Part shown: one piece after another, positions 6,701 through 64,000 of the stretch
Numbering within the stretch: position 1 is the stretch's first letter
Layout of the letters: the number at the start of each line of letters is the position of its first letter
DNA from: a virus
Lineage: Duplodnaviria > Heunggongvirae > Uroviricota > Caudoviricetes
Reading direction: 5' to 3' (one strand)
DNA: 64,000 nucleotides
IMG/VR virus record: IMGVR_UViG_3300028591_000112
Span: 31,934-95,933 of that record
Translations under genes and position numbers: made by a program
Notes under the pieces: model-generated
Databases searched by the model: none
Seen by the model: only the letters and a program-made list of their open reading frames with translations
What the model was told of the DNA's origin: nothing

Positions 6701-9700
6701 TGAAATTAATACTGATAAAGATGTAATATTAGCTCCACAAATAGGGGCTGGCAAAAAAGAAGCTGATAATTCATTTACTGGTATATTTATGGGAGATGTT
6801 TTAGAGGCTGGTAATGAAGAATCTAAAACTGGATTATATGGATATTATAAAGGTGATAAGACTATTGAGTTAAATTCAGAAGATGGTTCAGCTAAGTTTG
6901 GTAAAACTGGAGCTGGTCAAATTATTTTAGACCCAACTGATAATACAGCTAAATTAAAATCTGGTAATTTCTCAATGACATTAAGAGACCCTGCCGCCAA
7001 TGAAAAATATACTAATGGTTTAGTATATTATGGTAGTAGATCTGGTGTTAGTAGAATATTAGTTCCAGGAACTGATTATACTATTGGCAATAATGTTGCT
7101 AATGGAGATAAAATATGGACAAGTGGAAGTGGTTTAGAAATAGATTTAACTGACCCTCATATTATATTCGGTTCTGGAGATTTCTGGGTTGGAAAAGATG
7201 GAGATGTACATGCTAAGGAGTATGCTACAATTGCTAATTTGCAAGGCGGAGCATATACTATTCCACAAAGTTCTGTTGAAAATTTGACAACATTTATTAG
7301 TCAAACTAATAATAGTATAGATGAATTACAAAATCAAATAGATGGAAATATTACTACATGGTTCTATGAATATGAACCAGCTTTAAATAGACCACCGGTA
7401 ACGAGAGATGAAGCTCATCCTGAGGGCACTGGATGGACAACTACAGAATTAAAAAATCAACATTTAGGAGATTTATTTTATAATACTTTAACAGGCTATT
7501 GTTATAGATTTATGATAAGTGAAGGTGTTTATAGTTGGCAACAACTGAGTGATAGCGATATTTCAGAAGCATTAAGAATTGCTCAAGAAGCACAAGATAC
7601 TGCCGATAGTAAACGTAGAGTATTTTATAATACTCCAACTCCTCCATATGATGCAGGAGATTTATGAGTACAAGGTAGTACAGGAGATATTTTAAGATGT
7701 GCTACTCCTAAAACTAGTACTCAAGCTTATGCGGCTGTAGACTGAGTTGCAGCAAGTAAATATACTGATGATACATTAGCACAATCTGCTAATAATAAAA
7801 TAGATAATTTACAAATAGGTGGTAGAAATTTTGTTTTAGAAAGTAATATTCCTAATAAAGATGGGTCTACTGATGCATATCTTATTGGTAAATATAAATT
7901 AAGTAAAAATTTAGTAAATAATAAACAATATACTTGGTCTATTAATATAGAACCAACTACTAATAAAAAAGGTGTAGCAGTATATATTGGCGGAAACACT
8001 CATATATGCGGACGTTGGATAACAGCAAATCCTTTATCTACAGGCACTTATTCTTGTACTTTTATAGCTACTTCAGCTATGGAAAGTTTTGACACTGCTT
8101 GGATATATTGTTCTAATAATGAAGGTCCTCAAGGTACTACAGCTATTACTGGCACATGTAAACTTAATTGAGTTCAAATAGAAGAAGGAAATAGAGCTAG
8201 TGACTGAACTCCTGCCCCAGAAGATATAGAAAATGCGGCAATAGGTACGGTCACTGTTTTATATGCTTTAGGTAATGATACTACAATAGCTCCAACAACT
8301 GGTTGGTCTGAAGTGGCACCATCATGAACTGAAGGTAAATATATGTGGCAAAAAACTGTTATTACTTATGTTAATGGAGATACAGATGAATCTGATCCTA
8401 CTTGTATAGCGGGGGCAACAGGTAAAGCTGGAACTGGAATTACATATTTTGGTACTCGTTCTTGAACTAATGCACAAATAACTGATACATATATAATAGG
8501 TTATTCAGATACATGGGCAAATCAACTAAGCAAAGAAACTAAAGTTGGAGATTTATTATTGTTAGATGTTACTAATTCAACTTATAATACTAAATATGAA
8601 TATATATTAGAAGTTACTATAGGTGGGACATCTAGCCAGGCACCAACTGCAACAATTGTTGCAATTACAAAAGATGGTGATGCTACTGATATTCAAGTTG
8701 GTGGACGTAATGTCTTATGGAATTCAAGATATTTAAATATACCTTATACAATACAATCTCCATATATTTCATATTATAGTTTAACTGCAGCTTCAGTTAT
8801 TGAAAGAGAAGATGGTTTTAATGAAGTTCGTATTACAACGGGAGATAGTTGGAAAGGTATTGCATATAGTTTAAACTCATTAGAATTATCTGTTGGAGAT
8901 ATTTTAACAAATCAATTCTGGTTTAGGTCAAATAATGTTAGTGGAAAACTATCATTATATGCTATGTGTTATGATAGTGGTGGCAATAGGGTTAATGGTG
9001 ATTATTTAGCAGATATTACTTATGAAGGAGATTCAACAACAGGAGATAGTAAATTATTAGAGAACTTTACTAGCACAACAAATAAAAAAATAGTTGTATC
9101 ATTTAAATGAACTCAATTAGCTCAAGATTTAATTGATAATGGTGGAAGGATTACTTTAACTTTCCAAACACATAATTTAACTACTTCTGGTACTGGATAC
9201 TATACTGCGATATGGAAACCTAAAACTGAAATAGGTACTATTGCAACAGATTGGTCTCCTGCAGCAGAGGATACAATGCGTGAGACATTATCTAATGTTA
9301 TTACGACAGGTAGTCCAATATATTGTTATACTACATCAATTAATACCCCACCTTTAACTCCAGATATGAGCGGAGCTCCTACATGGGCGGCCGCACCTCC
9401 GGTAGAAAGTGGTAAGTATTTATGACAAACAACACCTGTTACTGTTGTAAATAGTTTAGGTGTTAGTACAACAACATATACTACGCCAATTTGCTTAACA
9501 CAACCTAAAATTGTTAATATAGTTCAACAATATTGTATGGTTAATGAAAGTAGTACAACTCAACCTGCAGAAAATGATGCTGGTTGAACAGCAGTTATAC
9601 CTGAATGAAAAATAAATAAAAAACTTTGGGTTAGAACTGCAACAATATATGATGATAATAGTTTACGTACTTATTCAAATTATCATATAGATACTACTTG

Positions 9701-38095: not shown

Positions 38096-39188
38096 CGTTT
38101 TTTCCTTATGTTACCATAAGCACTGACTATATCTTCTGCCTTGCGGCAGCCTTCTGCTTCGAGCTGGTGCTTATCTCCAGCCCTACTCCCTTACATTCAT
38201 CAGGGATAGTCGATACACTTTATTTTAAAATTTCAATAATATAACCTTCAATTTGAGGTCTTTCACCTTTTGCTATCTTAGCAATTATTTGTCTACTAGG
38301 TAATTCAGGCATCTCTCTTTCTACTTCTCTATAACTTTTAAATATTTTAATTTCATTAGTAAGAAGTATTGTAATTTTAATTTGAGTTCCTTTTCTTCTA
38401 ATATTTGTAGATACTGTATATTCATTAGTATAATCATCATTTTCATAAGCAATTAATCATTCATCTCTAAATAATTTTTTAATTTCATGATTACATCTTC
38501 TTGAAATGAACTGATGATTATTTTCATTAAAGAATTGTTGCATTTCAGATTGACTTCCAAAATGATATTCTTCATTAGTATTTATATTTTTACATTTAAC
38601 TCCAGTAGCATTTGGATTGTTAGCTCCTAATTTTGAAGCTCTTATTTTTTCACTTATTGTAGCAAGTTCTTCTTTAGTCTTACTCTGATAAGTATTTCCG
38701 CCACTTTTATTTGTAGCATCTGTTTCATTGTAACCATTCTCAATACTGTTATAATATCTAATCCAATACTGTTCCTTTTGAGTTAATTCTTCTTGAGTTT
38801 CTGCAGTATCTATTATTTCTGCTTTAAAATTATCTACTCCATAATATCTTAATGCTCTTGCAAAATGAGTATCAATAATATTATTTAAAGCATCGTTTTT
38901 ATGTCTATTAAATCTTTCTTCTAAAGTTCTTATTGTTTGTCCAATATAAACTTTATTATTTTTTAAATTTGTTATTTTATAAACTATCATAATAAAATCT
39001 CCTTTTCTTTTTCACCAATATATGAAAAATTGTACGGTACATTTTATTAATTTTGTTCATTTTTTTATTGAAATTTTAAAATCTTAGCACGGTCTCATCC
39101 TATCTTTAGGACCTAACCGTTAGCGGCGTTTCCGCCACACCCATTAAGCATGGTTCAAAAGGTTTTAGATGAGCTGTAGTTTACACTT
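38096..39188 (-). other. group I intron (IA-like) interrupting nrdD at STMG|CRT
   Basis: 5' exon ends in U (ATGGGT). Intron ends in G (aaaaaacg) before TGTAGA. Splicing restores the conserved NrdD TMGCR motif. Contains a T4 td-like core GUAUCGACUAUCCC and carries a GIY-YIG ORF. Confidence 0.7.
38220..38990 (-). CDS. GIY-YIG homing endonuclease within the nrdD intron (256 aa)
   Basis: RBS aaaaggagattttattATG. VYKITNLKNNKVYIGQT...YWIRYYNSIENGYN (GIY-YIG). Continues through TGA at 38457-38459 into a C-terminal putative DNA-binding extension; TAA at 38220. Confidence 0.75.
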
Positions 39189-40470: not shown

Positions 40471-41061
40471 TTATATATGAAAAGTTTTTTTAATAGATGA
40501 ATCTAATCTGCTTAAGCAGCTATGCTCTTTTAAAAATAAATAAAAATTTTCTAAATTTACATTATTTCCATTATAGTAAGTATAAAAATCAAAATCTAAA
40601 TCTACATTAAAGTCTTTTGAATCACTTAAAAAACGTCTGCATATCTCTTCACAATTTGGTTTATCTTCTCGATTTAAAGAGCGCATTAAACGAGTTTTAT
40701 CTTCGCAAGCAATGAGAATAGGAGTAATATCTAAATTATTATCTTGTAATAAACACTCTAATGCATGGATATTAAATACTCCTATATTAATATTATTTTC
40801 TTTTAAATCATCTCTTGCTGTACCATAAAATCAATTATTAAAACTTGTTGCTTCTAACATTGTTCCATCTAAAACTTTTAGTCCAAACTCTTCTTCTGTT
40901 AGAAAATGATAATTTACATCTTCTTTTTCATATTCTCTTTTTGGTCTTGTTGTTGTAGTAATAATTTTATTAAAACCAGTTTTATTAACTATATAATTTA
41001 ATAAAGTATCTTTACCACATCCGCTAGGGCCAAAAAGGGCAATAACTTTTATTTTATTCAT
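40471..41061 (-). CDS. gmk: guanylate kinase-like nucleoside monophosphate kinase
   Basis: P-loop GPSGCGKDTL, TTTRPKREYEKEDVNYHFLTEEEF, FYGT. Two ORF-track fragments joined through TGA. Start overlaps the dnaE end. Confidence 0.65.
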
Positions 41062-43688
41062 TATTACCGCCCTTTCTATCATGTCTTAATTGCATATTTC
41101 CCTTTTCATCTATTTGTTCAATTAAATATATTTGATGTGTTTGTGTCTTTGTATAGGTCTTAGCTACAAAAGTATCATCTCTTCTAAATCCAGTTATCAT
41201 TAATTTTGTTCCTCTTGTGAACCAGCCTTTTTCTATAACATGTTTTGTTCCATCTGCTTGAAGTTCACTTATTTGTCTATTATACATAGCAAAATAATCT
41301 TTAGTAAATTTAATTGGAACAATACCATCTGGAGTTAATAAAGTGACACTATTTTTTGTATCATTTTTATTAATAACAGTTCCTACTATTTTAAATGTTT
41401 TAAAAATAGGAATTTCTTTACCATTTCTTTTAAACATTTGATCGACTTGCGGATTAGGGGATAAATTAAAGAAATCTGTTAGTCCATATTTTAAATTATT
41501 TACATGAGATAATTCATGTTCATGATAATAGAAACATAAAGCTTCCATCTCCCATGCAGATAAATTGCCTTGTGCATATTTATCTCATGCTTCTTTAAAT
41601 AATAAAATATTAAACTTTTTAAGCATTTCCGCTTGATGTTCTTGTATATATGTGCGGGCTTCCGCCATTACATCTTGATAAATTTTATCCCATCTTGTTT
41701 GCAATATACAAGTTAATCCATTAATTACTTCTAATTGGTCTATATCAAAATTTGCATTATAAAATGTTTCACATACATTATTAAATACATAATATTTTCC
41801 AACTTTTTGATTTGCTTTTAAATATCTATTAAATTTAAAAGTTTTCTTTTGGAACTCTAATTCTTCAGGAATTAAATCATGTTCTAATAATCCATTAAAA
41901 TTTTGTAATGTTAATCTTTTCTTTGCATCGCAAGTTTTACTTAAATAATATGTCATTGTCCAAAAACGTGGTTCTACATTTGCGGCAGCAGCATATTGTT
42001 TATCTACTTTATCAAAAGCTCCTGCTTTAATCAAACTAATCATTGCACTTTTATTTAATGGACATCTATTAATAAAATCTGCTATTCCAATATATGGACG
42101 TCCGTTTTTAATTTGTTCTATAATAGGCCCACCAATATTACTTAATGCCTTCATACCAAATAAAATTTCATTATTATCTACATCTGGCTCAAAACTATAA
42201 TCAGATTTATTAATATCAACTAAACTAACTTTAATTCCTTTACTTATAATATCACTTAATGCTTTTGCAATTTTACTATAATCTGTTGTTTTTTCTTTCT
42301 TTTCTACAATATATCCATCTTCATCTTCTTCAAAATCGCTATCTTCTTCTAAACTTCCGCTATTAACTATTAAACATGCGGTATTCCAATATATTGGGTT
42401 CCATCTTGTTGCTACATACATAGTTTGAAAACCTATAAAACTATATGCTAATGCGTGAATAATTGAGAATGAATATCCCATTTGAGGACCAACTCCGCAA
42501 GTTCAAACATAATGGCCTAAACAAGGACTTGCCGCTTGATCTAATACCTGTTGTCTTAATGCTGGAATTTTACTCATTTGTTTCTTTCCAACTATTTTAC
42601 GTGCGGCATTTGCATCTTTTAATGAGAAATTACATATATGTTCATCCATTAACATTCTCATTAATTGCTCTTGACTTGGCGGAACTCCGTGAGAGCTCTT
42701 AAAATATGGCTCTAATGTTTTTTGTTCTTCTTTTGTTAAACCATATTCATCCATTTCTTTATACCATAAATTAATATTATTTTTAAATCTAATATATTTA
42801 TCCATTGGAGATTCTTGACCTTTTTCTGCTGTCATTAATCTCATTAATCCATTTGCATCAGCCATTTCCATTATATTAGATGGCTTAATTTTCTTAGCGG
42901 CTTGACTTCCTACGTCACTATCAAATTGAAAAATATTTAATACATTATTTTCTTGAAGAACTTTCCAATATTTATCTTCTTCAATAGGAAGAACATTTGG
43001 ATGAAAATATTTATTATAAACTTCTCTTAAAGTTAAATCATTTTCTATTTCTCCATAATCTTGTAACATTCTAATAGCTTCCGCTAATTTATCTTGAACT
43101 TCAGTTACTAAAAAGTCATATTTAGTCATTCCGCATGCTTCACACATATGTAAGTCATATGCAGTGATTACCTCTCCTTTTGGAGTTCTCATAAACGAAC
43201 CAAATTCATACGGATCTTCATCAAATAATATAACTCCTGAGGCATGACTACTTCTTTTATTTACTAGTCCTTCTATTCCCATCATTATATCTAATAAACC
43301 AGGGAATTGATTAACTTCATTAATAAATGTTTTATTAGGTTTTCTATCTTTGTCTTCATTTCCATATACAACATCATTTAAAGACCATAAAAATCCACGT
43401 TCACTAGGAATTAATGAACTTAAATATTGAGCTGTATCAACATCTATTCCATCAGGAAAATCTTCACTACGATATCCGCGGCAAGCGGTTAATATAGTTG
43501 AACGAGTTCCTTCTGTACCAAAAGTTGCTATTAAAGTACAACCTAAATTTTTTCTACTTATTTCATTTATATCACTATTAAAATTTTGTCCTCTTTCTTT
43601 TTTAATTTCATTTAAAATTTTAGGACGCTTACTAGGACATAAATCTAAATCTATATCTCCTAATTCTACACGCTCTTTATTTAAATCA
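41054..43688 (-). CDS. dnaE: DNA polymerase III alpha (DnaE-type), exon 2
   Basis: Starts (F)DLNKERVELGDIDLDLC (the PDIDIDF motif). Contains HASGVIL and a C-terminal OB fold. ORF-track fragments 42503-43285, 41585-42481 and 41054-41548 are in one frame joined by TGA. Confidence 0.7.
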
Positions 43689-44707
43689 CGTTATCCACCA
43701 TTTCTGATGGCGTAGACTATATCTTATTCTTTAAATATTTTCTATAAAATAACCACAGTAATATCCATTTCCTGCCCTAGCAGCTTTTAATCCAGCTCTT
43801 GCGCTTTCTACTTTAGTAGTTTTACATATTTTATTTTCTACAAATCATTCAGCACAATCTTTTACGGAATCAAATTCTTTATGAAAATCATTTTTACTTA
43901 TCATAATTCTTTGTCCAGCTGCTTGTCTAAAACTAAATCTTGGAATATTATTTTGATTTAATATATCATCTACTGTTGAATGATTAATTCCAAAATTTAA
44001 TGCTGTTTTTCTTGCACTTCTAGTTTTATAATAATCTTCAATAATTTCTTTATTTGGAAGCATTTTATGGTATTGTTGACCTCCAAATGTTTCATTATAT
44101 CCTTTTACAAAACTATTATAATAATCTATCCAATAAATTTCCGCCTTATCTAATTGTTCATAAGTCTCTATATTATCTTGAAGAACTTCAAAAGTAAAAT
44201 TTTCAATTCCATATTTTCTCATAGCTTTATATAAAGTTTTGTTAATACAATTTGGATGATTGATATTTATATTTCTTTTATGTTCTTTTCATCTTTCTTC
44301 AGCAGTTTTTATTGTTTGACCAATATAACATTTATTATTTATTTTATTTGTTATTTTATAAATTAACATATTAATCTCTCCTTTTCTATTATTATATGAA
44401 AAGTAGATTAATATTTTTCTACCTTTTTGACCAAAGTGGTAGAAAATATTTAAAGATTTTCGCACTTCGAGTAGTAACTCATCTTCTACTCTACTCCTTT
44501 CGGATAGTCGTTACACCTTGCGGCGACTGCCGCCTTGGCACTGGATTACCTTCAACTTTACTTGCTAAGGTTTCCCTGTTAGCATAAGAATTAATTAACC
44601 ATTTCCTGTTAAAACTGTTCGTTTCTTACACACCCTTGAGTAACAAGGTTCACGAAATTTTTTATACTATACATTACTGTATAGGGCACCTATTTCTTAA
44701 AAGTTCT
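43689..44707 (-). other. group I intron interrupting dnaE at KWSLPFWRF|DLNKERV
   Basis: 5' exon ends CGCTT (U). Intron ends ...gataacg (G). The joined exons give a continuous alignment to the DnaE consensus KYNLLFERFLNPERV. Core GUAACGACUAUCCG (+ strand 44491-44514) resembles the T4 td intron P7 region. Confidence 0.6.
43724..44369 (-). CDS. GIY-YIG homing endonuclease within the dnaE intron (about 215 aa)
   Basis: RBS aaaaggagagattaatATG. LIYKITNKINNKCYIGQT...YWIDYYNSFVKGYN. Two in-frame TGA codons (44222, 43845). TAA at 43724. Confidence 0.7.
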
Positions 44708-46023
44708 AAGCGCCAGAAAGGTAAACTTCATTTGATTGGATCAAGTTGAGTTATTCCCAATAAATAATGATTAAGACCAGAACAACTTGAACCACGGCCT
44801 GCACCAACGATGCTGCCGCACTCCCAGAATAAATCAACGTAATGTTGTAAAGTTACTGGATAACTAAACATATTAGTTCCTAATTTTTCACTAATTGTTT
44901 GCTTTATATCAGCTTCTTCTTCTAATCTATCTAAATACTCTTGATTAAATTTTCCTATTTGTTGAAGTTTATTAATACATTCGTTAACCCAATATCTATT
45001 AACTTTATCATCTGAGTTTGCTAATTCATTTAATATTGGATAATTACTTATTCCTGTATATCCTTTAGGATAATCTTTTACTTCAACATGCGGAATTGTT
45101 TGTGCATGAGCTAAATTATAATTTTCTATTTGATTATATATTTCTATACTATTATTATATAATTCATTAATAAAATCTATATTAAATTCAGATGCATTTA
45201 AATTATTTATTATATCATTATCATCTTGAAGATAAGCAAATTCATAAAATTCATCCACTTCACGTTCTCCAAATTTACTATTTAAATATGCTTTGTGAAC
45301 ATATCTATCTTCTTTTTTAAGATAATGTGCATCTGTTCCAATAACCATTTTTAAACCAAATGCTTTTGCTATTGCAGGTAATCTTTTATTTACTGCAACT
45401 TGTTCTTTGCTACTTCCAGGCGCACACTCTATATAAAAGTTTTGTTCTCCAAAAACTTTTTTACACCATAATAAAAAATTTACTATATTACTATGTGCGG
45501 CAGTCGCGCCTTCGCTATCACCCGTTTGTTCACATTTTATTAATTCTAATGTATTGACAGATAATTCTCCACCTAGACATGCTGTTGTTCCTATTAAACT
45601 ATTAGGATATTTTTTTAAAATTAATTCTAAATCATCTTTTAATGTTGGAACCCTTTCTAAACCTCTATCCCAATAACTATTTAACCAAGCTAAAGAGGAT
45701 AATTCTCTTAAAGCTCTATGTCCTTCTTTATTTTTTGCTATTAAAATAAAGTGATAATATCTTTGTCCTTTATCTCTTGTATCTGTTAAATATATTTCAT
45801 TTCCTAAAGCAATTTTAAAATCAGGATGTTCTTTTTGAATTTCTTGTTGATAAAAGTTTAATTCAGGATGAGAACAGATTGCTTCATGGTCTGTGATTGC
45901 AATTCCTTTTAATCCAAGTTCAATAGCACGGTTTACTAAATCTTTAGGTCTATTAATTGAGTCAAGTAAACGAAGATTTGAGTAATAAGTGTGAGAATGC
46001 ACTTCGAAACGAGATACTTCCAT
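44708..46023 (-). CDS. dnaE: DNA polymerase III alpha (DnaE-type), exon 1 (PHP domain)
   Basis: MEVSRFEVHSHTYYS...GIAITDHEA is the PHP domain N-terminus. 431 codons without TGA, then TGA and a short tail up to the intron. Confidence 0.7.
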
Positions 46024-58578: not shown

Positions 58579-58599
58579 GTTATTGCAAATTTCTTTATA

Positions 58600-58631
58600 T
58601 GAAAAAAGTGTTGTTATAATTTAACAACACT
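58600..58631 (-). terminator. terminator hairpin overlapping the gyrA stop
   Basis: agtgttgtt ataattt aacaacact followed by ttttttc on the minus strand. Confidence 0.45.
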
Positions 58632-60941
58632 CTTAACATTATTTTGAATAAGTTTAACTCCAATAGTAGTTCTTCCTTGAGTATTTAATTCAGTTGCGGG
58701 GATACATATACTATTAGGAGTTCCTATTAATAATAAACTATCATCATTAGTTATTGCGGCCGCACCTGCAAGGTTAATACCTAATTTTAATCCCTTGCCT
58801 CCGCGTCCTTGTAATGAGAACTCAGATATATCACATTTTTTCCCATAACCCTCTACACTAATAAAAGCTATTTCTTTTGTATCTTTAGAGATAGGAATTC
58901 CGCAAACAACCTCATCATCACTAGCTAAATTAATACTTTTTACTCCACTAGTTACTCTACCTATTGCCGCAATATCTTTAGTAGTAAATCTTATGCTCAT
59001 ACCATTTTTAGTACAAACTAAACATTCTTCGTCCTTCATAAATAAAACATTAGCAATACTATCGCCATCTTTTAATTTAATAGCTTGAGTTCCTGTAGAT
59101 TTTTTAATTGATTTATATTCACTTAATAAAGTCTTTTTAAATAAACCTTGTTTTGTTATAAATACTACATAATCAGCATCTAAATCTCTGTCCATACTTG
59201 CGGCAGCAATAATTTTTTCATTTGGTTCCATGCTAATTAAACTAGCTAAATTTTGTCCTTTTGATACATTTGTACCAATAGGTAGTTTATCAACTAATAT
59301 TTTATACATTTTACCTTTATTAGTAAACACTAATAAGTTATCAATAGTATTAGTTTTTATAGTGGCTAAAATTGCATCATCTTCAGATTTAATTCCTTTT
59401 CCGCCTCTTTTTTGAGTTCTAAAACTTGTTTTAGGAATACGTTTAACATCTCCAGTTTGAGATACCATTACAACAACATCTTCAGGGATAACTGTTGCAA
59501 TTTCTTTTTCTTCTTTTGGAACTTCAATTTGTGCTAGTTCAGTTTTTCTTTTATCTCCATATTTTTTAACTAAATCAGATAATCTTGTTCTAATTATTGA
59601 TAATTGAGCATCTTTATTGGTTAATGTATAATTATATCCATCTATATCATGTTCTAACTGGGCTTTTTCTTCATTTAATTCTATCTTTTCTAATTTCGCA
59701 AGAGAACCTAATCTCATAGCTACAATAGATTTTGCTTGGGGTTCAGTAAATTTATATTCTTTAACCAAACCTTCTTTTGCGGCAGCACTTGATTCAGACT
59801 TTTTAATAAATGTAATTATATTATCAATATCTTCCAATGCTTTAATTAATCCATTTACAATCTCTAGGCGGGCTTCCGCAGCATTTAAATCAAATTTAGT
59901 TTCTTTAATTAAACAATTAATGTTATGGTCTAAATATATTTTAATACAATCTTTTAAATTTACTTCTGTTGGAGTTTTATCTATTAAAGCAACTTGATTA
60001 TATGAAAAACTACTTTGTAAATCTGTTTTTGCAAACAATCTATTAGCTATTGCATCAGGATTAACTCCTTTTGCACATTCTACAACTATTCTTAAACCTT
60101 TTTTATTACTTTCATTTCTAATATTTACTATTTCCGCAATATCAGTTTCTGCTACTTCACCTATTTCCGCAATAAGTGCTTCTGTTGTAGTACCATAAGG
60201 AATTTCATAGAATACGATATTTTGTCCTTCAGTTTTATATTTAGCTCTAACTTTTACACTTCCATGTCCTGTTTTCATGATACTTGGAATATCATTCATA
60301 TTAATAACAATTCCGCCTGTTGGAAAATCAGGGCCAGGTAACATTGGTTCTTTACCGTCCATATAATCATATATAGCTGTTGCTACTTCTCCTAAATTAT
60401 GTGGGGCAAAATTACAAGCCATTGCAACACCAATACCTGTATTTGGATTACATAGTAAATTAGGGAATATAGCAGGTAATGTAACTGGCTCTTCTGCATC
60501 TTCAGAGTAATTAGGAATAAAATCTACATTTTGCTTTTTAATTCCTTTTAACATACCGTCTTCTGCAAGTTTAGATAACCTTGCTTCTGTATAACGCATA
60601 TGAGCAGGACCATCTCCATCAATATTTCCATTGGAACCATGGACTTCGATTAGAGGGTACCTCATAATCCAACTTTGGGAAAGACGAATCATTGCTCCAT
60701 ATATTGAACTATCTCCATGAGGATGGTACGACCCCATAACATCTCCTACAATACGAGCAGATTTTACATGTGGCTTAGAACTCCCATATCCACGTTCAAA
60801 AGCCCCCCATAATATCCTTCTAGCTACTGGCTTTAGTCCTGAGGTAGCGTCGGGTATAGCTCTGTCTTCATTTACTGCTGCGGCGTACTCAATAAAATTC
60901 TTACTTAATTCATTTATAATGTCATTAGTTTTGTTATCCAT
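58614..60941 (-). CDS. gyrA: type IIA topoisomerase subunit A (GyrA/ParC-like)
   Basis: RAIPDATSGLKPVARRIL, YHPHGDSSIYGAMIRLSQSWIMRYPL, MRYTEARL (active-site Tyr region). 775 codons without TGA. My own indexing puts the ATG at 60940 (one off from the ORF track). Confidence 0.8.
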   Translation of the reverse strand: MDNKTNDIINELSKNFIEYAAAVNEDRAIPDATSGLKPVARRILWGAFERGYGSSKPHVKSARIVGDVMGSYHPHGDSSIYGAMIRLSQSWIMRYPLIEVHGSNGNIDGDGPAHMRYTEARLSKLAEDGMLKGIKKQNVDFIPNYSEDAEEPVTLPAIFPNLLCNPNTGIGVAMACNFAPHNLGEVATAIYDYMDGKEPMLPGPDFPTGGIVINMNDIPSIMKTGHGSVKVRAKYKTEGQNIVFYEIPYGTTTEALIAEIGEVAETDIAEIVNIRNESNKKGLRIVVECAKGVNPDAIANRLFAKTDLQSSFSYNQVALIDKTPTEVNLKDCIKIYLDHNINCLIKETKFDLNAAEARLEIVNGLIKALEDIDNIITFIKKSESSAAAKEGLVKEYKFTEPQAKSIVAMRLGSLAKLEKIELNEEKAQLEHDIDGYNYTLTNKDAQLSIIRTRLSDLVKKYGDKRKTELAQIEVPKEEKEIATVIPEDVVVMVSQTGDVKRIPKTSFRTQKRGGKGIKSEDDAILATIKTNTIDNLLVFTNKGKMYKILVDKLPIGTNVSKGQNLASLISMEPNEKIIAAASMDRDLDADYVVFITKQGLFKKTLLSEYKSIKKSTGTQAIKLKDGDSIANVLFMKDEECLVCTKNGMSIRFTTKDIAAIGRVTSGVKSINLASDDEVVCGIPISKDTKEIAFISVEGYGKKCDISEFSLQGRGGKGLKLGINLAGAAAITNDDSLLLIGTPNSICIPATELNTQGRTTIGVKLIQNNVKSVVKL

Positions 60942-60942
60942 T

Positions 60943-61656
60943 ATTAAAATCCTCCTTTTCCAATAATTTATCTATTGTTATATTATTAAAATTCTTATAA
61001 GAAATTTCTATCAATTTTTTATTATTATTTATACACCATTGTTTTTTTATTTTATCTCTTTTTATTTGATTTGTCAATTTTTCTTTTGTATTTCAGCCTA
61101 TATTTAATGTTTCATAGTGTTGACTACCTTGATATTCTATTAAAATATTGTATTCAGGAAGAAAAAAATCAAACCTTAACTTAGCATTAGTTTCAGGATT
61201 AATGCAATCTTCAAAAGTTTTTTCTTTTTCAAAAATGATATTATTTTCTTTTAGAAGATTAGATATTCTTTCTTCGCCTAAAGATTTAATGCATCCACAA
61301 GAATGTGTATGTCCTCTTCTTAAATCGATACCATTTACAATGATTTGATTACCGCATTTACATTGACATAATCAAAAAACATCTTTATTAGCATTATTCT
61401 TCTTAGCTTTTTCTATAACTGTCAGCTTCCCATATACATTTCCTATTTCTTCTTTTATAAGAGATGCTCTATTTTTATCATCAGGGCATCGTGTAATTTT
61501 TTGTAAAGAATCAGATCTTACAGAATGAATCTTATCACAATTATCACAAGAGCATAACCAAAATGCTCTTTTTTGTTGATTTGTTCTGTCTATATCTAAT
61601 TTTATTACTGTCAAAGGTCCAAATTTTTGACCTGTTAAATCTTTTCTATTCGGCAT
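60943..61656 (-). CDS. free-standing endonuclease: tandem Cys-rich DNA-binding repeats + Vsr/PD-(D/E)xK-like C-terminal domain (about 237 aa)
   Basis: Two repeats (GQKFGPLTVI...FWLCSCDNC and VYGKLTVI...VFWLCQCKCG...HSCGC); the second Trp is encoded by TGA, giving an internal control for TGA = Trp. C-terminal FDFFLPEYNILIEYQGSQHY resembles the Vsr/DUF559 nuclease core. Inserted between gyrB and gyrA. Confidence 0.5.
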
Positions 61657-62218
61657 TATAAGAAGCCTCTTTACTATGAAGTTTGATGAAATCTTTACGA
61701 CTTTGAATAGCAGTCCCCATTAAATCATTAAATAATTTATCTGCGGCCGCCGCATCATCAACAGTTATTTGTTTAATAATTCTATTATCGGGATCAGTTA
61801 GTGTTTCTTCAGTTTCGTCTACGGACATTTCACCTAAACCCTTCATTCTATTAACAGTTATTTTTTTATCTCCTATTGATTTTTTAAATTCTTCTAATTC
61901 TTCATCATTTTTAATATATTTATATTCTTTACCTATTGTTACTTTATATAATGGTGGAACTCCTGCATATATATATCCATCTTCAATTAATTGAGGACAG
62001 AAATTCCATATAAAAGTATAGAACAAATTTTTAATATGCGCTCCATCAACATCAGCATCAGATTCAATAATAATTTTGCCATATCTTAAACTATCTTTAT
62101 CATAAGTAACTTGCATAGTTTTAGTATCAATATATAATCCAAAAGCATCTATCATAGTCATAATTTCCGCATTTTTTTGTATTTTATCTAAACTTGCTTT
62201 TTGTGTATTAAGTATTTT
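61646..62218 (-). CDS. gyrB: type IIA topoisomerase subunit B (GyrB-like), exon 2
   Basis: Starts KILNTQKASLDKI (completing RG|KILN). Contains GKIIIESDADVDGAHI and YAGVPPLYK. TAG at 61646. Confidence 0.7.
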   Translation of the reverse strand, partial: KILNTQKASLDKIQKNAEIMTMIDAFGLYIDTKTMQVTYDKDSLRYGKIIIESDADVDGAHIKNLFYTFIWNFCPQLIEDGYIYAGVPPLYKVTIGKEYKYIKNDEELEEFKKSIGDKKITVNRMKGLGEMSVDETEETLTDPDNRIIKQITVDDAAAADKLFNDLMGTAIQSRKDFIKLHSKEASYNAE

Positions 62219-63356
62219 CGTTTTCCCTTATATTTCTATAAGAACTGACTATCTCTTACTCTCTGAGTTTGTCATCACTCTTCTTCGAGCACTCCATTTC
62301 GAACTGCGTATCAATAGCAGCCCTACTCCCAGTCTAACCCGGGATAGTCGATACATGAGTTAATCTACATTTTTATAAGTTTCTCTTTTTATAATTGCTG
62401 CAATAGAACTTTCAGATAAATTATATTTTTCTCCTAATTCTCTATAACTAACAACTCCTTTTTTATAAGAATTTCTTATTTCTTTTACTTGGACATTAGT
62501 AAGTTTTGCATTAGTATGTCTTACCTGTTCTTTGTTTGGAATATTTCCAACAGTGACATAAGTTTGACCTAAAACTATTCTTTTAAAAGTTTGTTGATTT
62601 GAATATAAATCTTTAAAATCTTGATAAATTTCTTTTATTGGTTCTCCATCAATATATCTTTGTCTAATATCCCAAACTTGTTGATTTGTTAGTTTTGCTC
62701 GAGGATGATTTTCACTCATTAAAGATTTATTTTGTTCCCTTGTTTTTTGTCTTTTTAATTCGGTTTCTTCAGAATAAATATTTGGACTCCAGTATTGTCC
62801 ACCTTCAGTTGAATTATATCCATTTTTAAAAGTATCAAATTCTTTTATATATTTAATTTCTAAATCATCTAATTCTTTTTCTTCACATAGTTTTAATATA
62901 ATTACTTCAAAATTATCAATTCCATATTTTCTAAGAGCTTGATAAAACTTAGTATTATAATTACAATTATTTTCATTCTTATAATCTACTAAATGATGAC
63001 TTTGAAATCTTTTTCTAATATTTTTGCTTTGTCCAATATATTTTTTATTGTTTATTAAATTTACTACCATATAAATTCCACTATTAGCTGGTAGATTTTC
63101 TATATTTTTCATATTTATCTCTCCTTTGTCAATAATATATGAAAAATAGTTTTAAGTATTTATATATTTTTGTCCGTTTTTAGTATTTTAGATTAACATT
63201 TTCACACGGGATTACCTTCGCCTAAACATATTTTGACATATATGTGTAACGGTCAGGCTTCCCCGTTAGCATACATTTCTGTACACCCCACTGATAAGTG
63301 GTTAGAAGTGTAGAGGCAAATATTATTTCGGTATAGCCTTACGCTATCCTAAGTCT
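62219..63356 (-). other. group I intron interrupting gyrB at PVRG|KILN (TOPRIM)
   Basis: 5' exon ends AGAGGT (U). Intron ends ...gaaaacg (G). Core GUAUCGACUAUCCC and CAGCCCTACTCCC are identical to the nrdD intron. Carries a GIY-YIG ORF. Confidence 0.65.
62360..63112 (-). CDS. GIY-YIG homing endonuclease within the gyrB intron (250 aa)
   Basis: RBS acaaaggagagataaatATG. GIYMVVNLINNKKYIGQS...KYIKEFDTFKNGYN. TAA stop, no TGA. Confidence 0.75.
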   Translation of the reverse strand: MKNIENLPANSGIYMVVNLINNKKYIGQSKNIRKRFQSHHLVDYKNENNCNYNTKFYQALRKYGIDNFEVIILKLCEEKELDDLEIKYIKEFDTFKNGYNSTEGGQYWSPNIYSEETELKRQKTREQNKSLMSENHPRAKLTNQQVWDIRQRYIDGEPIKEIYQDFKDLYSNQQTFKRIVLGQTYVTVGNIPNKEQVRHTNAKLTNVQVKEIRNSYKKGVVSYRELGEKYNLSESSIAAIIKRETYKNVD

Positions 63357-64000
63357 ACCTCTCACTGGCATTACCGCTTGGAACTCATTATCTCTTGCTG
63401 ATTTTAAGTTTCCGCTTGCGGAATCTCCCTCTGTGATATATATTTCACATTTGTTTCTATCTTTTGAATAACAATCAGCAAGTTTACTATCAAATTTTAA
63501 TGCTTTTTCTTTTTTCTTATTAGTTTCTCTTACTCTCTCACGAGCGTTTTTAGCTGCCTCTCTAGCTTTACGAGCGGCTGCCGCCTTATCAAAAATAGTT
63601 TTAATTTCTTTTTCATTATTAACTAACCAATATTGTAAATTAGTAGCAATAATAGTAGAGAAATTGCTCATATCTAATTTAGTAACAGTTGATTTTACTT
63701 GTGCATCATATGCAACATTAGGGGCAGTCATATTAAATACTATATACATACCTTCTTGTATATCATCTCCTGTTAAATTTTCTTCTTTATCTTTTAACCA
63801 TTTTTTATCTTTAAAGAATTTATTAAATTCTCTTGTAATTATAGTTTTAACTTGCGTTATATGAGGGCCTTTCTCTGTAAGACCTGTATTTACATAAGGA
63901 ATTAATGTTAATGAATAATTAGATGTATATGTTAATACCATGTCTAATTTTTCTTTTCCTTCTGCATACTTCATGTCAAATCTATTTGATATAATTTCTT
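63357..64000 (-). CDS. gyrB: type IIA topoisomerase subunit B (GyrB-like), exon 1 (3' part; N-terminus beyond the window)
   Basis: Transducer domain LTGDDIQEGMYIVFNMTAPNVAYDAQVKS and TOPRIM start EIYITEGDSASGNLKSARDNEFQAVMPVRG. The reading frame continues upstream past 64000. Confidence 0.7.

What the first reader, a model, noticed from the sequence alone, without database searches (positions are those of the whole stretch)
62219..63356. Third group I intron with GIY-YIG homing endonuclease splits gyrB exactly at the TOPRIM RG|KILN motif and shares identical core blocks with the nrdD intron
Exon 1 ends ...EGDSASGNLKSARDNEFQAVMPVRG (terminal U). Exon 2 begins KILNTQKASLDKI, matching GyrB RGKILNVEKARLDKI. 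The 13-mer CAGCCCTACTCCC and the 14-mer GGGATAGTCGATAC (+ strand) occur in both this intron (62318-62354) and the nrdD intron (38178-38216), 24 kb apart. This indicates a recently diverged intron family that has spread to several essential genes of one phage.
Basis: seen in the sequence. Interest (0 to 1): 0.8.

Follow-up and report, generated by a model that had tools for sequence, protein, structure and literature searches.

The report
Mobile group I intron in phage gyrB
A self-splicing group I intron carrying its own GIY-YIG homing endonuclease gene interrupts a phage DNA gyrase B gene at a conserved catalytic-domain motif; this is a familiar kind of selfish element, and its exact matches to a second intron in the same phage are conserved ribozyme core, not evidence of recent spread.

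Summary
On the minus strand, 63356→62219 (1138 nt) interrupts gyrB between ...MPVRG and KILNTQ.... The joined exons align without a gap to solved GyrB structures. All 80 closest viral-contig relatives have an uninterrupted gene at exactly this point, and one contig (L212) carries the same intron at the same site.

The RNA has a group I core: U·G at the 5' splice site, a terminal G, and helices P3 to P9 including P7.1 and P7.2. Covariation across 18 related introns supports the fold (87% of cells paired against 36–46% in slid controls; 42 of 65 pairs changed on both sides). An intact-looking 250-aa GIY-YIG endonuclease gene sits in the P6a loop.

The claim of a recently diverged family spreading within one phage is not supported. 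The two shared blocks are the P7/P7.1/P7.2 core, which occurs in more than 120 viral contigs. The nrdD intron matches coliphage T4's nrdD intron exactly over 32 nt. The gyrB and nrdD ribozymes are only 49% and 65% identical, and their endonucleases 34%. Each intron has closer relatives in other phages.

Verdict: a new member of a known kind. Side observations: two hairpins inserted between P3 and P4, one apparently pairing with the P7.2 loop; several intron sites in gyrB of related phages; TGA read as Trp.

The parts
63357..64000 (-). gyrB exon 1. It is partial because the gene runs off the window end. It ends ...EGDSASGNLKSARDNEFQAVMPVRG with a terminal U at 63357.
   Evidence: Pfam DNA_gyraseB 7.5e-26 plus the start of Toprim. 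Gap-free alignment to PDB 8s7k_B across the junction.
62219..63356 (-). Group I intron, 1138 nt, with an IA2-like core.
   Evidence: Precise absence in 80 of 80 relatives. The same intron at the same site in L212. Covariation-supported fold.
63357..63362 (-). Exon strand of P1, AGAGGU. The last U forms the U·G wobble at the 5' splice site.
   Evidence: Complementary to the guide sequence GCCUCU. RNAfold of the local region forms this helix, z −2.9.
63312..63320 (-). Internal guide sequence. GCCUCU (63317..63312) pairs with the end of exon 1. The preceding UUU (63320..63318) can pair with the first three bases of exon 2, AAA at 62218..62216, to form P10.
   Evidence: Read from the sequence.
63330..63349 (-). 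Hairpin extension in the P1 loop, GGAUAGC-GUAA-GGCUAUACC.
   Evidence: RNAfold. L212 has a different hairpin at the same place.
63305..63310 (-). P3 5' strand, CACUUC.
   Evidence: Pairs with GGAGUG at 62295..62290. All 6 pairs show changes on both sides across 18 introns (helix 1).
63288..63301 (-). Hairpin A, CCACU-UAUC-AGUGG, inserted between P3 and P4. Its loop, UAUCA, is complementary to the P7.2 loop, UGAUA.
   Evidence: Stem covaries (helix 2). The loop–loop pairing covaries: 88.9% paired against 5–53% in slid controls.
63270..63285 (-). Hairpin B, UGUACA-GAAA-UGUAUG, followed by CUAA (63269..63266), which leads into P4.
   Evidence: 5 of 6 pairs show changes on both sides (helix 3).
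63206..63266 (-). P4–P5–P5a domain: ACGGGG ... GCCU ... ACAUAU/AUAUGU ... AGGC ... UCCCGU.
   Evidence: P4 is 100% paired with 4 covarying pairs. P5 is poorly aligned by MAFFT (helices 4–6).
63189..63205 (-). P6 5' strand (GUG) and P6a 5' strand (GUUAAUCUA).
   Evidence: P6 covaries: UG/CA here, GG/CC, GC/GC or CU/AG in others (helix 7). P6a is a 9-bp perfect complement to 62367..62359.
63103..63148 (-). Hairpin enclosing the endonuclease ribosome-binding site (AAGGAGAG) and start codon, UUUUUCAUAU/AUAUGAAAAA. A −10-like TATATT lies in its 5' arm.
   Evidence: RNAfold −10.9 kcal/mol, z −3.0. The motif TTTTCATATAWT lies upstream of all three intron endonuclease genes.
62360..63112 (-). GIY-YIG homing endonuclease gene, 250 aa, located in the P6a loop. 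Its last codons and stop overlap the 3' strand of P6a.
   Evidence: Pfam PF01541 4.8e-11 plus a weak C-terminal helix-turn-helix match. PHROG homing-endonuclease families.
62355..62367 (-). P6a 3' strand (UAGAUUAAC) and P6 3' strand (CAU).
62327..62354 (-). J6/7 (GUAU), P7 5' strand (CGACUA, the guanosine-binding helix) and the P7.1 hairpin (UCCC-GGGUUAGACU-GGGA).
   Evidence: P7 is invariant in 18 of 18 introns and P7.1 covaries (helices 8–9). The same motif is aligned to P7 by Rfam RF00028 in sibling introns and in T4.
62301..62323 (-). P7.2 hairpin, GGGCUGC-UAUUGAUAC-GCAGUUC.
   Evidence: 6 of 7 pairs show changes on both sides, 98.4% paired (helix 10).
62290..62295 (-). P3 3' strand, GGAGUG.
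   Evidence: helix 1.
62261..62289 (-). P8, made of CUC/GAG plus GAGU/ACUC.
   Evidence: Each relative has its own complementary P8, for example L212 CUC/GAG + GGAU/AUCU and L135 CAC/GUG + GACUU/AAGUC. This was read by inspection. MAFFT aligns this region poorly (helices 11–12).
62247..62260 (-). J8/7 (AGUAAGAGA) and P7 3' strand (UAGUC).
   Evidence: Near-invariant AAGA.AUAGUC. Rfam aligns the same motif in siblings.
62226..62243 (-). P9 hairpin, UCUUAU-AGAAAU-AUAAGG.
   Evidence: 4 of 6 pairs covary (helix 13).
62219..62219 (-). Terminal G of the intron (ωG), the 3' splice site.
   Evidence: Read from the sequence. It is the only position that restores the reading frame while keeping U at −1 and G at the intron end.
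61646..62218 (-). gyrB exon 2, KILNTQKASLDKI... through to the stop codon.
   Evidence: Pfam Toprim, GyrB_hook and DNA_gyraseB_C. PDB alignment.

Best explanation
The 1138-nt insert is a mobile group I intron with an IA2-like core, inside the gyrase B gene of a phage that reads TGA as Trp.

Splicing, inferred from the anatomy: the intron is transcribed as part of the gyrB pre-mRNA. The end of exon 1 (AGAGGU) pairs with the guide sequence GCCUCU to form P1, with a U·G wobble at the cleavage site. A free guanosine bound in P7 (CGACUA/UAGUC) attacks that site. The UUU next to the guide sequence then pairs with the AAA that starts exon 2 (P10). The terminal G (62219) enters the guanosine site, and the exons are joined to restore ...PVRG-KILN....

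The core is P3–P8, P4–P6 and P7, with the P7.1 and P7.2 hairpins of phage IA2 introns. Two extra hairpins lie between P3 and P4, and the loop of the first appears to pair with the P7.2 loop.

The P6a loop carries a GIY-YIG endonuclease gene with its own ribosome-binding site, which a hairpin encloses together with the start codon. Mobility is inferred by analogy with T4 I-TevI and I-TevII. In a mixed infection the enzyme would cut intron-less gyrB of a related phage near the conserved RGKILN codons, and repair from the intron-bearing copy would transfer the intron.

Shown here: exact boundaries, exon colinearity, presence or absence among relatives, a covariation-supported fold, and endonuclease family membership. 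Inferred: actual splicing, endonuclease activity and target, and regulation by the hairpin.
For: The joined exons align gap-free to M. tuberculosis GyrB 8s7k_B across the junction (E 6e-80).

All 80 best viral-contig relatives (76–96% aa identity) have contiguous gyrB at this point...CGTGGT|AAAATA.... L212 has the same intron at the same site, with ribozyme identity 80% (5' domain) and 88% (3' domain), but its endonuclease gene has lost the GIY-YIG domain.

Fold: 87.4% of cells are paired against 36–46% in slid controls; 42 of 65 pairs change on both sides; 0 of 500 shuffles reach the observed values. The U·G and ωG rules are met, and P1 and P10 are visible in the sequence.

Rfam RF00028 recognises family members that have no ORF in the core: L095 at 51.9 bits (above the gathering score of 50) and T4 nrdD at 105 bits. 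It aligns the same CGACUA and AAGAUAUAGUC motifs as P7 and J8/7–P7'.

Endonuclease: Pfam GIY-YIG 4.8e-11 and PHROG homing endonuclease 2e-32. The ribosome-binding-site hairpin has z −3.0. [quoted passage not shown]
Against: There is no RNA evidence of splicing. Rfam gives no hit on the window itself, either at gathering threshold or at E ≤ 10. This is expected, because the 753-nt endonuclease ORF, within about 0.8 kb of non-core sequence, splits the core and two hairpins are inserted in J3/4, but it is still a negative result.

The covariation set was gathered by homology to this intron and the structure was drawn on it, which inflates the paired percentage relative to slid controls. P5 and P8 are not supported in the MAFFT alignment. 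P10 is only 3 bp. Endonuclease activity and target site are unknown. P9 is a single hairpin, so the extended P9 domain described for IA2 introns is missing.
Confidence: 0.9

Rival explanations
1. One reading: the gyrB, nrdD and dnaE introns are recent copies of one element that multiplied within this phage genome, and the identical 13- and 14-mers are remnants of that recent common origin.
For: The blocks are exact and not due to chance. All three introns share the same unusual layout: P3, then AA, hairpin A, hairpin B, CUAA and P4, plus P7.1 and P7.2. All three carry GIY-YIG genes preceded by a similar TTTTCATATA motif.
Against: The blocks are the conserved catalytic core. The motif is in more than 120 viral contigs and the exact blocks occur in unrelated contigs. 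There is a 32-nt exact match between the nrdD intron and T4's nrdD intron. Ribozyme identity between the gyrB and nrdD introns is 49% and 65%, no higher than between the gyrB intron and an Enterococcus phage intron at 66% and 70%. The endonucleases are 34–37% identical over the catalytic domain only, with unrelated C-terminal halves. The endonuclease gene sits in P6a in two of the introns and in P8 in the third. Same-site counterparts exist in other phages: L212 for gyrB and L062 for nrdD.
Confidence: 0.07
2. The insert does not splice. A free-standing endonuclease gene has split gyrB into two separately translated genes whose products assemble, as with T4 topoisomerase genes 39 and 60 (mobA) or Aeh1 nrdA (mobE).
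For: Precedents exist in phage topoisomerase and ribonucleotide reductase genes (PMC2988022). The exon 1 frame stops 5 codons into the insert, and exon 2 contains an ATG at 62161.
Against: The flanks of the endonuclease gene fold into a complete group I core supported by covariation. The first ATG of exon 2 would discard the conserved KILNTQKASLDKIQKNAEI and has no Shine-Dalgarno sequence. The U·G, ωG, P1 and P10 geometry fits the exact in-frame junction. In L212 the ribozyme is kept while the endonuclease gene has decayed.
Confidence: 0.03
3. The intron is real and splices, but it is no longer mobile. Its endonuclease is inactive or repurposed, and the element is simply inherited vertically.
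For: The L212 copy at the same site has lost the catalytic domain, which shows that endonuclease decay occurs in this lineage. Only one other occupied site was found among the viral contigs scanned.
Against: The window ORF is full-length, with GIY...YIG, the following Arg and His, and the Glu and Asn region all present by inspection. It also has a strong ribosome-binding site. The patchy distribution among relatives at 76–96% aa identity is what active gain and loss produces.
Confidence: 0.2

Closest known systems
Phage T4 td intron with I-TevI
   Same: A group IA2-type ribozyme in an essential nucleotide or DNA metabolism gene of a phage. It carries a GIY-YIG endonuclease. By my recollection its ORF also lies in a P6 loop. 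The endonuclease ribosome-binding site is sequestered in a hairpin that contains a promoter-like element (PMC2988022). It shares the ACGACUAUCCC...GGGAGUAGGG core motif (recollected for td; shown for the T4 nrdD intron).
   Different: The host gene is td rather than gyrB. T4 introns go directly from P3 to P4 through a short J3/4, as shown for T4 nrdD: UCUGCC-UAAAA-CGGG. The gyrB intron has about 38 nt with two hairpins there. The gyrB intron also lacks an extended P9 domain. The endonuclease C-terminal halves were not compared.
Phage T4 nrdD (sunY) intron with I-TevII
   Same: The P7–P7.1 segment is 100% identical over 32 nt to the window's nrdD intron. It carries a GIY-YIG endonuclease. RF00028 scores it at 105 bits. 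Three related introns in one phage sharing core blocks is the classical T4 situation.
   Different: The insertion site in nrdD is different (…AYEL| in T4, …STMG|CRT here). Its ORF lies 3' of the core. It has no hairpins between P3 and P4.
Introns of Enterococcus phages VRE9_3, EF1 and EF5 (GenBank PP680569, MF001358, MF001361)
   Same: These are the closest matches among cultured phages: 84% identity over the 3' core, including for VRE9_3 the same P7.1 loop GGGUUAGACU (EF1 has a different P7.1 loop). They share the hairpin A / hairpin B layout. The VRE9_3 GIY-YIG endonuclease is 36% identical over its full length.
   Different: The hosts are different phages, and the host gene was not identified here. 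In those records the introns are not annotated; only a 'homing endonuclease' or hypothetical proteins are.
Related gyrB introns at ITEG|DSASG (L135, L192, L160, L209, L212) and DADV|DG (L212) in related viral contigs
   Same: They belong to the same ribozyme subfamily (73% and 67% identity for L135). They carry GIY-YIG genes in the same loop. They sit in the same TOPRIM domain of the same gene in the same phage clade.
   Different: The insertion sites are 23 codons upstream or about 75 codons downstream. The endonucleases are only 31–38% identical to the window's.
T4 mobA splitting of the topoisomerase large-subunit gene (genes 39 and 60)
   Same: A selfish endonuclease element lodged in a functionally critical region of a phage type II topoisomerase gene (PMC2988022).
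   Different: There the gene is physically split and the pieces assemble as protein. Here a ribozyme restores a continuous mRNA.
Intron-rich gut 'Jug' jumbo phages
   Same: Metagenomic phages whose essential genes (terL, nrdD, DNA polymerase) are interrupted by many group I introns and endonuclease genes, with splicing confirmed by metatranscriptome reads (PMC12880540).
   Different: A different phage group. Those introns are mostly about 200 nt without an ORF, and gyrB was not reported as interrupted in the passages I read.

Membership tests
Group I intron | The 5' exon ends in U, paired as U·G with an internal guide sequence (P1). | tested here: met
   Exon AGAGGU pairs with guide GCCUCU, with U63357·G63317.
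Group I intron | The intron ends in G (ωG), and the 3' exon can pair next to the guide sequence (P10). | tested here: met
   G at 62219. Exon 2 AAA pairs with UUU at 63320..63318. P10 is only 3 bp.
Group I intron | A conserved core of P3–P8, P4–P6 and P7 in pseudoknot topology, supported by compensatory changes. | tested here: met
   On A1 (18 introns): 87.4% paired against 36–46% in slid controls, and 42 of 65 pairs changed on both sides. P3, P4, P6, P7.1, P7.2 and P9 covary. P7 is invariant. P5 and P8 are not resolved by the MAFFT alignment.
Group I intron | Match to Rfam RF00028 at gathering score. | tested here: not met
   No hit in the window at gathering threshold or at E ≤ 10. The core is split by the 753-nt endonuclease ORF, within about 0.8 kb of non-core sequence. 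Family member L095 scores 51.9 bits against a gathering score of 50, L090 scores 32.3 bits and an ORF-less intron in L001 scores 31.5 bits. ORF-less siblings L099:2969–3196, L210:84–345 and L070:10073–10384 gave no hit at E ≤ 0.001.
Group I intron | Guanosine-dependent self-splicing. | not testable with these tools
   This needs an in-vitro transcript or RNA reads.
Subgroup IA2 | Two hairpins, P7.1 and P7.2, between P7 and the P3 3' strand. | tested here: met
   UCCC/GGGA and GGGCUGC/GCAGUUC, both covarying (helices 9 and 10). The definition is taken from PMC4227781.
Subgroup IA2 | An extended P9 domain (P9.0, P9.1, P9.2). | tested here: not met
   A single 6-bp P9 hairpin is followed by GAAAACG and the splice site.
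Subgroup IA2 | A short J3/4 joining P3 directly to P4. | tested here: not met
   About 38 nt with two covarying hairpins separate the P3 5' strand from P4 (helices 2 and 3). T4 nrdD has 5 nt there. I could not establish from the literature whether this variant has been described.
GIY-YIG homing endonuclease | GIY-YIG catalytic domain. | tested here: met
   PF01541 at 43.2 bits against a cut-off of 22.6, residues 11–100. GIY at 12–14 and YIG at 25–27 by inspection.
GIY-YIG homing endonuclease | A separate C-terminal DNA-binding region. | tested here: inconclusive
   Weak HTH_28 match below cut-off (20 bits against 25). PHROG helix-turn-helix and endonuclease families match residues 116–250. Two AKLTN-QV-IR repeats are visible by inspection.
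GIY-YIG homing endonuclease | Cleaves the intron-less allele near the insertion site. | not testable with these tools
   This needs purified protein and an intron-less substrate.
Mobile (homing) intron | Presence or absence at one exact site among close relatives. | tested here: met
   Absent in 80 of 80 best relatives and present at the same site in L212.

The most novel reading that the evidence does not exclude
The gyrB intron may represent an undescribed structural subclass of phage IA2 introns. In this subclass two hairpins are inserted into J3/4, between the P3 5' strand and P4. The loop of the first hairpin pairs with the P7.2 loop, possibly standing in for the missing P9.1/P9.2 periphery. 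The subclass is common: about 30 paired examples were found here, in rumen-type code-4 phage contigs and in cultured Enterococcus phages. It is largely invisible to Rfam RF00028. In one phage clade it has colonised at least three catalytic motifs of gyrB TOPRIM (EG|DSA, RG|KILN, DADV|DG) and also gyrA.
Probability: 0.3. Interest if true: 0.5.

Novelty: new member of a known kind. Interest (0 to 1): 0.3.

Why it matters
It adds the type IIA topoisomerase B subunit to the essential phage genes known to host mobile group I introns. [quoted passage not shown]

It shows endonuclease-bearing introns converging on the catalytic motifs of one domain.

It is also a practical warning. Standard annotation would call gyrB truncated or split, because Rfam misses the intron and table 11 breaks nearby genes.

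It corrects a tempting inference: exact 13–14-nt matches between introns in one genome can be conserved ribozyme core rather than recent duplication.

Tried and rejected
1. Rfam on the window, at gathering threshold and at E ≤ 10 on 62100–63500. It returned nothing relevant. I explain this by the ORF in P6a and the J3/4 insertion, and checked the explanation on ORF-less siblings and on T4.

2. An extended 9-bp P1 (GUGAGAGGU/GCCUCU-A-CAC), which RNAfold suggested on the isolated 5' region. I rejected the outer 3 bp because CAC belongs to the covarying P3 and L212 lacks that extension.

3. P3 registers using AGAAG or GAAG further downstream. I rejected them in favour of CACUUC/GGAGUG, which lies where T4's P3 3' strand lies and which covaries.

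4. P3 formed by the 3' strand of hairpin B, which is how Rfam aligns L095. Rfam itself flags those pairs as non-canonical, and hairpin B covaries as a local hairpin.

5. A J6/7 (GUAUC) to P7.2-loop (GAUAC) pairing. The variants GUAAC with GGUAC do not compensate. The hairpin A loop to P7.2 loop pairing fits better.

6. Literature searches for a gyrB or topoisomerase group I intron in phages, and for 'P3.1'. I found no report and no description of the J3/4 insertion. The library is incomplete, so this is not proof of absence.

7. TTTTCATATAWT as a general phage promoter motif. With one mismatch there are 18 hits against 11.5 expected, which is not significant. Only the 4 exact hits are suggestive, and 3 of them lie upstream of the endonuclease genes.

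8. Intein or group II intron. The insert is not in frame (a stop comes after 5 codons), it has its own ribosome-binding site and ORF, and its fold is group I.
Full report
**What is in the sequence.** The feature lies on the minus strand. Exon 1 of a gyrB gene, whose start is beyond the window end, reads ...EGDSASGNLKSARDNEFQAVMPVRG and ends with GGT at 63357. After 1138 nt (63356→62219, ending in G), the frame resumes with AAA ATA CTT AAT... = KILNTQKASLDKI. Pfam places DNA_gyraseB and the first 30 positions of Toprim on exon 1. It places Toprim positions 45–86, GyrB_hook and DNA_gyraseB_C on exon 2. The joined exons align without a gap across the junction to M. tuberculosis GyrB (8s7k_B, E 6e-80): FQAVMPVRGKILNTQKASLDKI against [22 protein letters not shown]. 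Inside the insert, ORF 63112..62360 encodes a 250-aa protein with a GIY-YIG domain (PF01541, 4.8e-11) that matches PHROG homing-endonuclease families.

**It is a discrete insertion.** A scan of viral contigs with the C-terminal 233 aa of the spliced GyrB returned 208 relatives. In all 80 that were kept (76–96% aa identity), gyrB is contiguous across this point, and the DNA reads ...CGTGGT|AAAATA... in the 40 loci whose DNA was printed. One contig, L212, has the same intron at the same site...GUUCGAGGU|AGACGU...AAAAAUG|AAGAUUUUAAAU. Its ribozyme is 80% and 88% identical to the window's in the 5' and 3' domains. It retains only the C-terminal ~115 codons of the endonuclease gene, because the GIY-YIG domain is deleted. 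Presence or absence at one exact site, together with a decayed endonuclease copy, is the expected signature of a homing element.

**The RNA fold.** Rfam finds nothing in the window, at gathering threshold or at E ≤ 10, so I built the model by hand and tested it.
- P1 is exon AGAGGU with guide GCCUCU (63317..63312), with U·G at the cleavage site.
- The UUU just 5' of the guide can pair with the AAA that starts exon 2, forming P10.
- P3 is CACUUC (63310..63305) with GGAGUG (62295..62290).
- P4 is ACGGGG/UCCCGU, and P5 and P5a lie within it.
- P6 is GUG/CAU. P6a is GUUAAUCUA/UAGAUUAAC, which closes the loop holding the endonuclease gene.
- After J6/7 comes P7, CGACUA/UAGUC, followed by P7.1 (UCCC/GGGA) and P7.2 (GGGCUGC/GCAGUUC).
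- Then come P8, J8/7 (AGUAAGAGA), P9 (UCUUAU/AUAAGG) and the terminal G.

To test this I collected relatives. Iterated nhmmer with the two ribozyme halves paired 31 introns in the loci held. Eighteen were aligned with the ORF loop replaced by N6 (A1). On that alignment the structure gives 87.4% paired cells against 36–46% when partners are slid. Changes on both sides occur in 42 of 65 pairs, and 0 of 500 shuffles reach the observed values. P3 (6 of 6 pairs), hairpins A and B, P4, P6, P7.1, P7.2 and P9 all covary. P7 is invariant, as expected for the guanosine-binding helix. P5 and P8 are misaligned by MAFFT, although each intron has its own complementary P8 by inspection. One caveat applies: the sequences were found by homology to this intron and the structure was drawn on it, which favours the unshifted structure. 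The counts of double changes are the more robust measure.

Independent anchoring comes from Rfam. RF00028 scores the T4 nrdD intron at 105 bits, family member L095 at 51.9 bits against a gathering score of 50, and an ORF-less intron in an Enterococcus phage locus at 31.5 bits. In each it aligns the same CGACUA and AAGAUAUAGUC motifs to P7 and J8/7–P7'.

**How it most likely works.** Splicing by the standard two-step group I pathway is inferred from the anatomy above. The exon 1 frame stops 5 codons into the intron (…RGRLRIA*), so ribosomes leave before reaching the core. The endonuclease gene has a strong Shine-Dalgarno sequence (AAGGAGAG). This sequence and the AUG are enclosed by a hairpin (UUUUUCAUAU/AUAUGAAAAA; −10.9 kcal/mol, z −3.0) whose 5' arm contains a −10-like TATATT. 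The dnaE intron endonuclease gene has a comparable hairpin (z −4.0), but the nrdD one does not. The exact motif TTTTCATATAWT occurs 4 times in the window, and three of those lie 20–30 nt upstream of the three endonuclease start codons. [quoted passage not shown] There, a hairpin blocks the ribosome-binding site on read-through transcripts, and a late promoter inside the hairpin produces translatable mRNA (PMC2988022). Here it remains an inference. Homing by cleavage of intron-less gyrB is likewise inferred, from the family and from the patchy distribution.

**The 'recent spread' interpretation.** In RNA terms the shared blocks are GUAUCGACUAUCCC (J6/7, P7 5' strand, P7.1 5' strand) and GGGAGUAGGGCUG (P7.1 3' strand, GUAG, P7.2 5' strand). 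They are family-wide core. The exact blocks occur in 9 and 2 of the 120 contigs returned by that scan. The window's nrdD intron is 100% identical over 32 nt to coliphage T4's nrdD intron, even though T4's intron sits at a different site and carries its ORF elsewhere. Outside the blocks the two window introns are distant. Identity is 49% in the 5' domain and 65% in the 3' domain, compared with 66% and 70% between the gyrB intron and an Enterococcus phage intron. The nhmmer score is 27.5 bits, against 107.7 for L212 and 58.7 for VRE9_3, and the nrdD 5' domain is not detected at all. The endonucleases share 34% (nrdD) and 37% (dnaE) identity with the gyrB enzyme over about 125–130 residues of the catalytic domain only, whereas the Enterococcus phage enzyme aligns over its full length. 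The nrdD intron has a same-site counterpart in L062 (…G|CRT). So the three introns belong to one old structural family, and each is closer to introns in other phages than to its neighbours. This is the situation long known for T4's three introns.

**The other two introns are real.** Joining …VSTMG to CRTYNG gives a colinear match to anaerobic ribonucleotide reductases (9d3x_A). Joining …LPFWR to YLNKERVELGDIDLD gives a colinear match to E. coli DNA polymerase III alpha, …[21 protein letters not shown]. The dnaE intron carries its endonuclease gene in P8, closed by a 17-bp helix.

**Beyond the finding.**
- *Hairpins in J3/4.* In this subfamily the P3 5' strand is not followed directly by J3/4 and P4, as it is in T4 (UCUGCC-UAAAA-CGGG). 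Instead it is followed by AA, hairpin A, hairpin B and CUAA. Both hairpins covary.
- *A loop–loop contact.* The hairpin A loop is complementary to the P7.2 loop, UAUCA to UGAUA, and the pair changes together. It is GCUUA/UAAGC in the window nrdD intron, UACCA/UGGUA in L081, L058 and L207, and UAUUAAU/AUUAAUA in L070. On A1 this pairing is 88.9% paired against 5–53% in slid controls, and 5 of 5 pairs show a double change. These changes come from few independent events.
- *Detection by Rfam.* ORF-less members of this subfamily (L099, L210, L070) were not detected by RF00028 at E ≤ 0.001. I could not find this layout in the literature available to me, which is not proof that it is new.
- *An intron hot spot.* Related phages carry family introns with GIY-YIG genes at ITEG|DSASG (L135, L160, L192, L209; also in L212) and at DADV|DG (L212) in gyrB. 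L187 carries one in gyrA at …NPNSGIG|VALACSWAPHN. L212 has three introns within about 100 codons. All the gyrB sites lie in catalytic motifs of the TOPRIM domain.
- *Genetic code.* The window reads TGA as Trp. ORFs of at least 100 aa total 26,511 aa under table 4 against 17,790 under table 11. In-frame TGA codons occur in the dnaE exon, in two intron endonuclease genes and in a free-standing endonuclease gene between gyrB and gyrA.

**Novelty and score.** A group I intron with a GIY-YIG endonuclease in an essential phage replication gene is textbook biology (T4 td and nrdD). Intron-rich metagenomic phages have also been described recently (PMC12880540). In the library I could search I found no report of gyrB as the host gene. 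A 2014 review names polymerases, reductases and terminases as typical targets and does not mention gyrase (PMC3984707). I rate this a new member of a known kind, with interest 0.3. The structural variant and the gyrB hot spot are the parts that might repay further work.

Noticed in passing
whole window; for example 38460–38462 (−), 44289–44291 (−), 44729–44731 (−), 61372–61374 (−): The window appears to use genetic code 4 (TGA = Trp). ORFs of at least 100 aa total 26,511 aa with table 4 against 17,790 with table 11. In-frame TGA codons occur in the dnaE exon (..PIKWSLPF..) and in three endonuclease genes. GC content is 28.6%, and no tRNA gene is in the window.
   Followed up: partly
window 60934–61656 (−): A free-standing endonuclease gene lies between gyrB and gyrA. 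It encodes 240 aa when two in-frame TGA codons are read as Trp. It matches PHROG HNH and homing-endonuclease families (phrog_559 5e-29, phrog_9084 1.5e-28). With table 11 it appears as two short ORFs.
   Followed up: partly
window 63288–63301 and 62301–62323 (−); window nrdD intron; loci L081, L058, L207, L070: The loop of hairpin A, inserted between P3 and P4, is complementary to the P7.2 loop and covaries with it: UAUCA/UGAUA, GCUUA/UAAGC, UACCA/UGGUA and UAUUAAU/AUUAAUA. This is a candidate loop–loop tertiary contact.
   Followed up: partly
window 63270–63301 (−) and the same region in about 30 related introns: Two covarying hairpins lie between the P3 5' strand and P4, where T4 introns have a 3–5 nt J3/4. 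ORF-less members with this layout (L099:2969–3196, L210:84–345, L070:10073–10384) gave no RF00028 hit at E ≤ 0.001.
   Followed up: partly
L212 (IMGVR_UViG_3300026159_000274), minus strand, about 3500–430: One gyrB gene carries three family introns within about 100 codons, at EG|DSA, RG|KILN and DADV|DG. The middle one has lost the GIY-YIG half of its endonuclease gene.
   Followed up: partly
L135 3080–4000, L192 3080–4000, L160 1–190, L209 860–1840: The closest ribozyme relatives of the window intron, apart from L212, sit 23 codons upstream at ITEG|DSASG. This is the catalytic Glu motif of TOPRIM, in gyrB of related phages. It suggests a change of site within the gene.
   Followed up: partly
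L187 about 5680–6740: A family intron interrupts gyrA at ..NPNSGIG|VALACSWAPHN in a related phage.
   Followed up: partly
window 43687–44708 (−): The dnaE-like gene has a family intron whose GIY-YIG gene (44369..43731, with in-frame TGA) sits in P8, closed by a 17-bp helix. The splice junction (…LPFWR|YLNKER) was inferred from protein colinearity. The exact 5' and 3' positions (U44709 and G43687) are my best reading, not a tested result.
   Followed up: partly
window 38096–39188 (−): The nrdD intron splits …STMG|CRTYNG, immediately before the conserved MGCR cysteine. L062 has an intron at the same site. Its P7–P7.1 is identical over 32 nt to T4's nrdD intron, which sits at a different site.
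   Followed up: partly
window 63134–63145, 44391–44402, 39017–39028 (−); also 59997–60008 (−): The exact motif TTTTCATATAWT lies 20–30 nt upstream of all three intron endonuclease start codons. Near-matches lie upstream of nrdD (40472–40483) and of the gene after gyrA (58594–58605). It could be a phage promoter element or the anti-start arm of a regulatory hairpin.
   Followed up: partly
window 63357–63365 (−) compared with L123–L162: The last codons of exon 1 are GTG AGA GGT here, whereas most intron-less relatives have GTT CGT GGT. The AGA codon improves pairing with the guide sequence GCCUCU. This could be coincidence, co-conversion or adaptation.
   Followed up: no
window 63247–63269 (−): UAACGG (J3/4 and the P4 5' strand) can alternatively pair with CCGUUA inside P5, a 6-bp local hairpin that competes with P4. 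It is only partly conserved in relatives.
   Followed up: no
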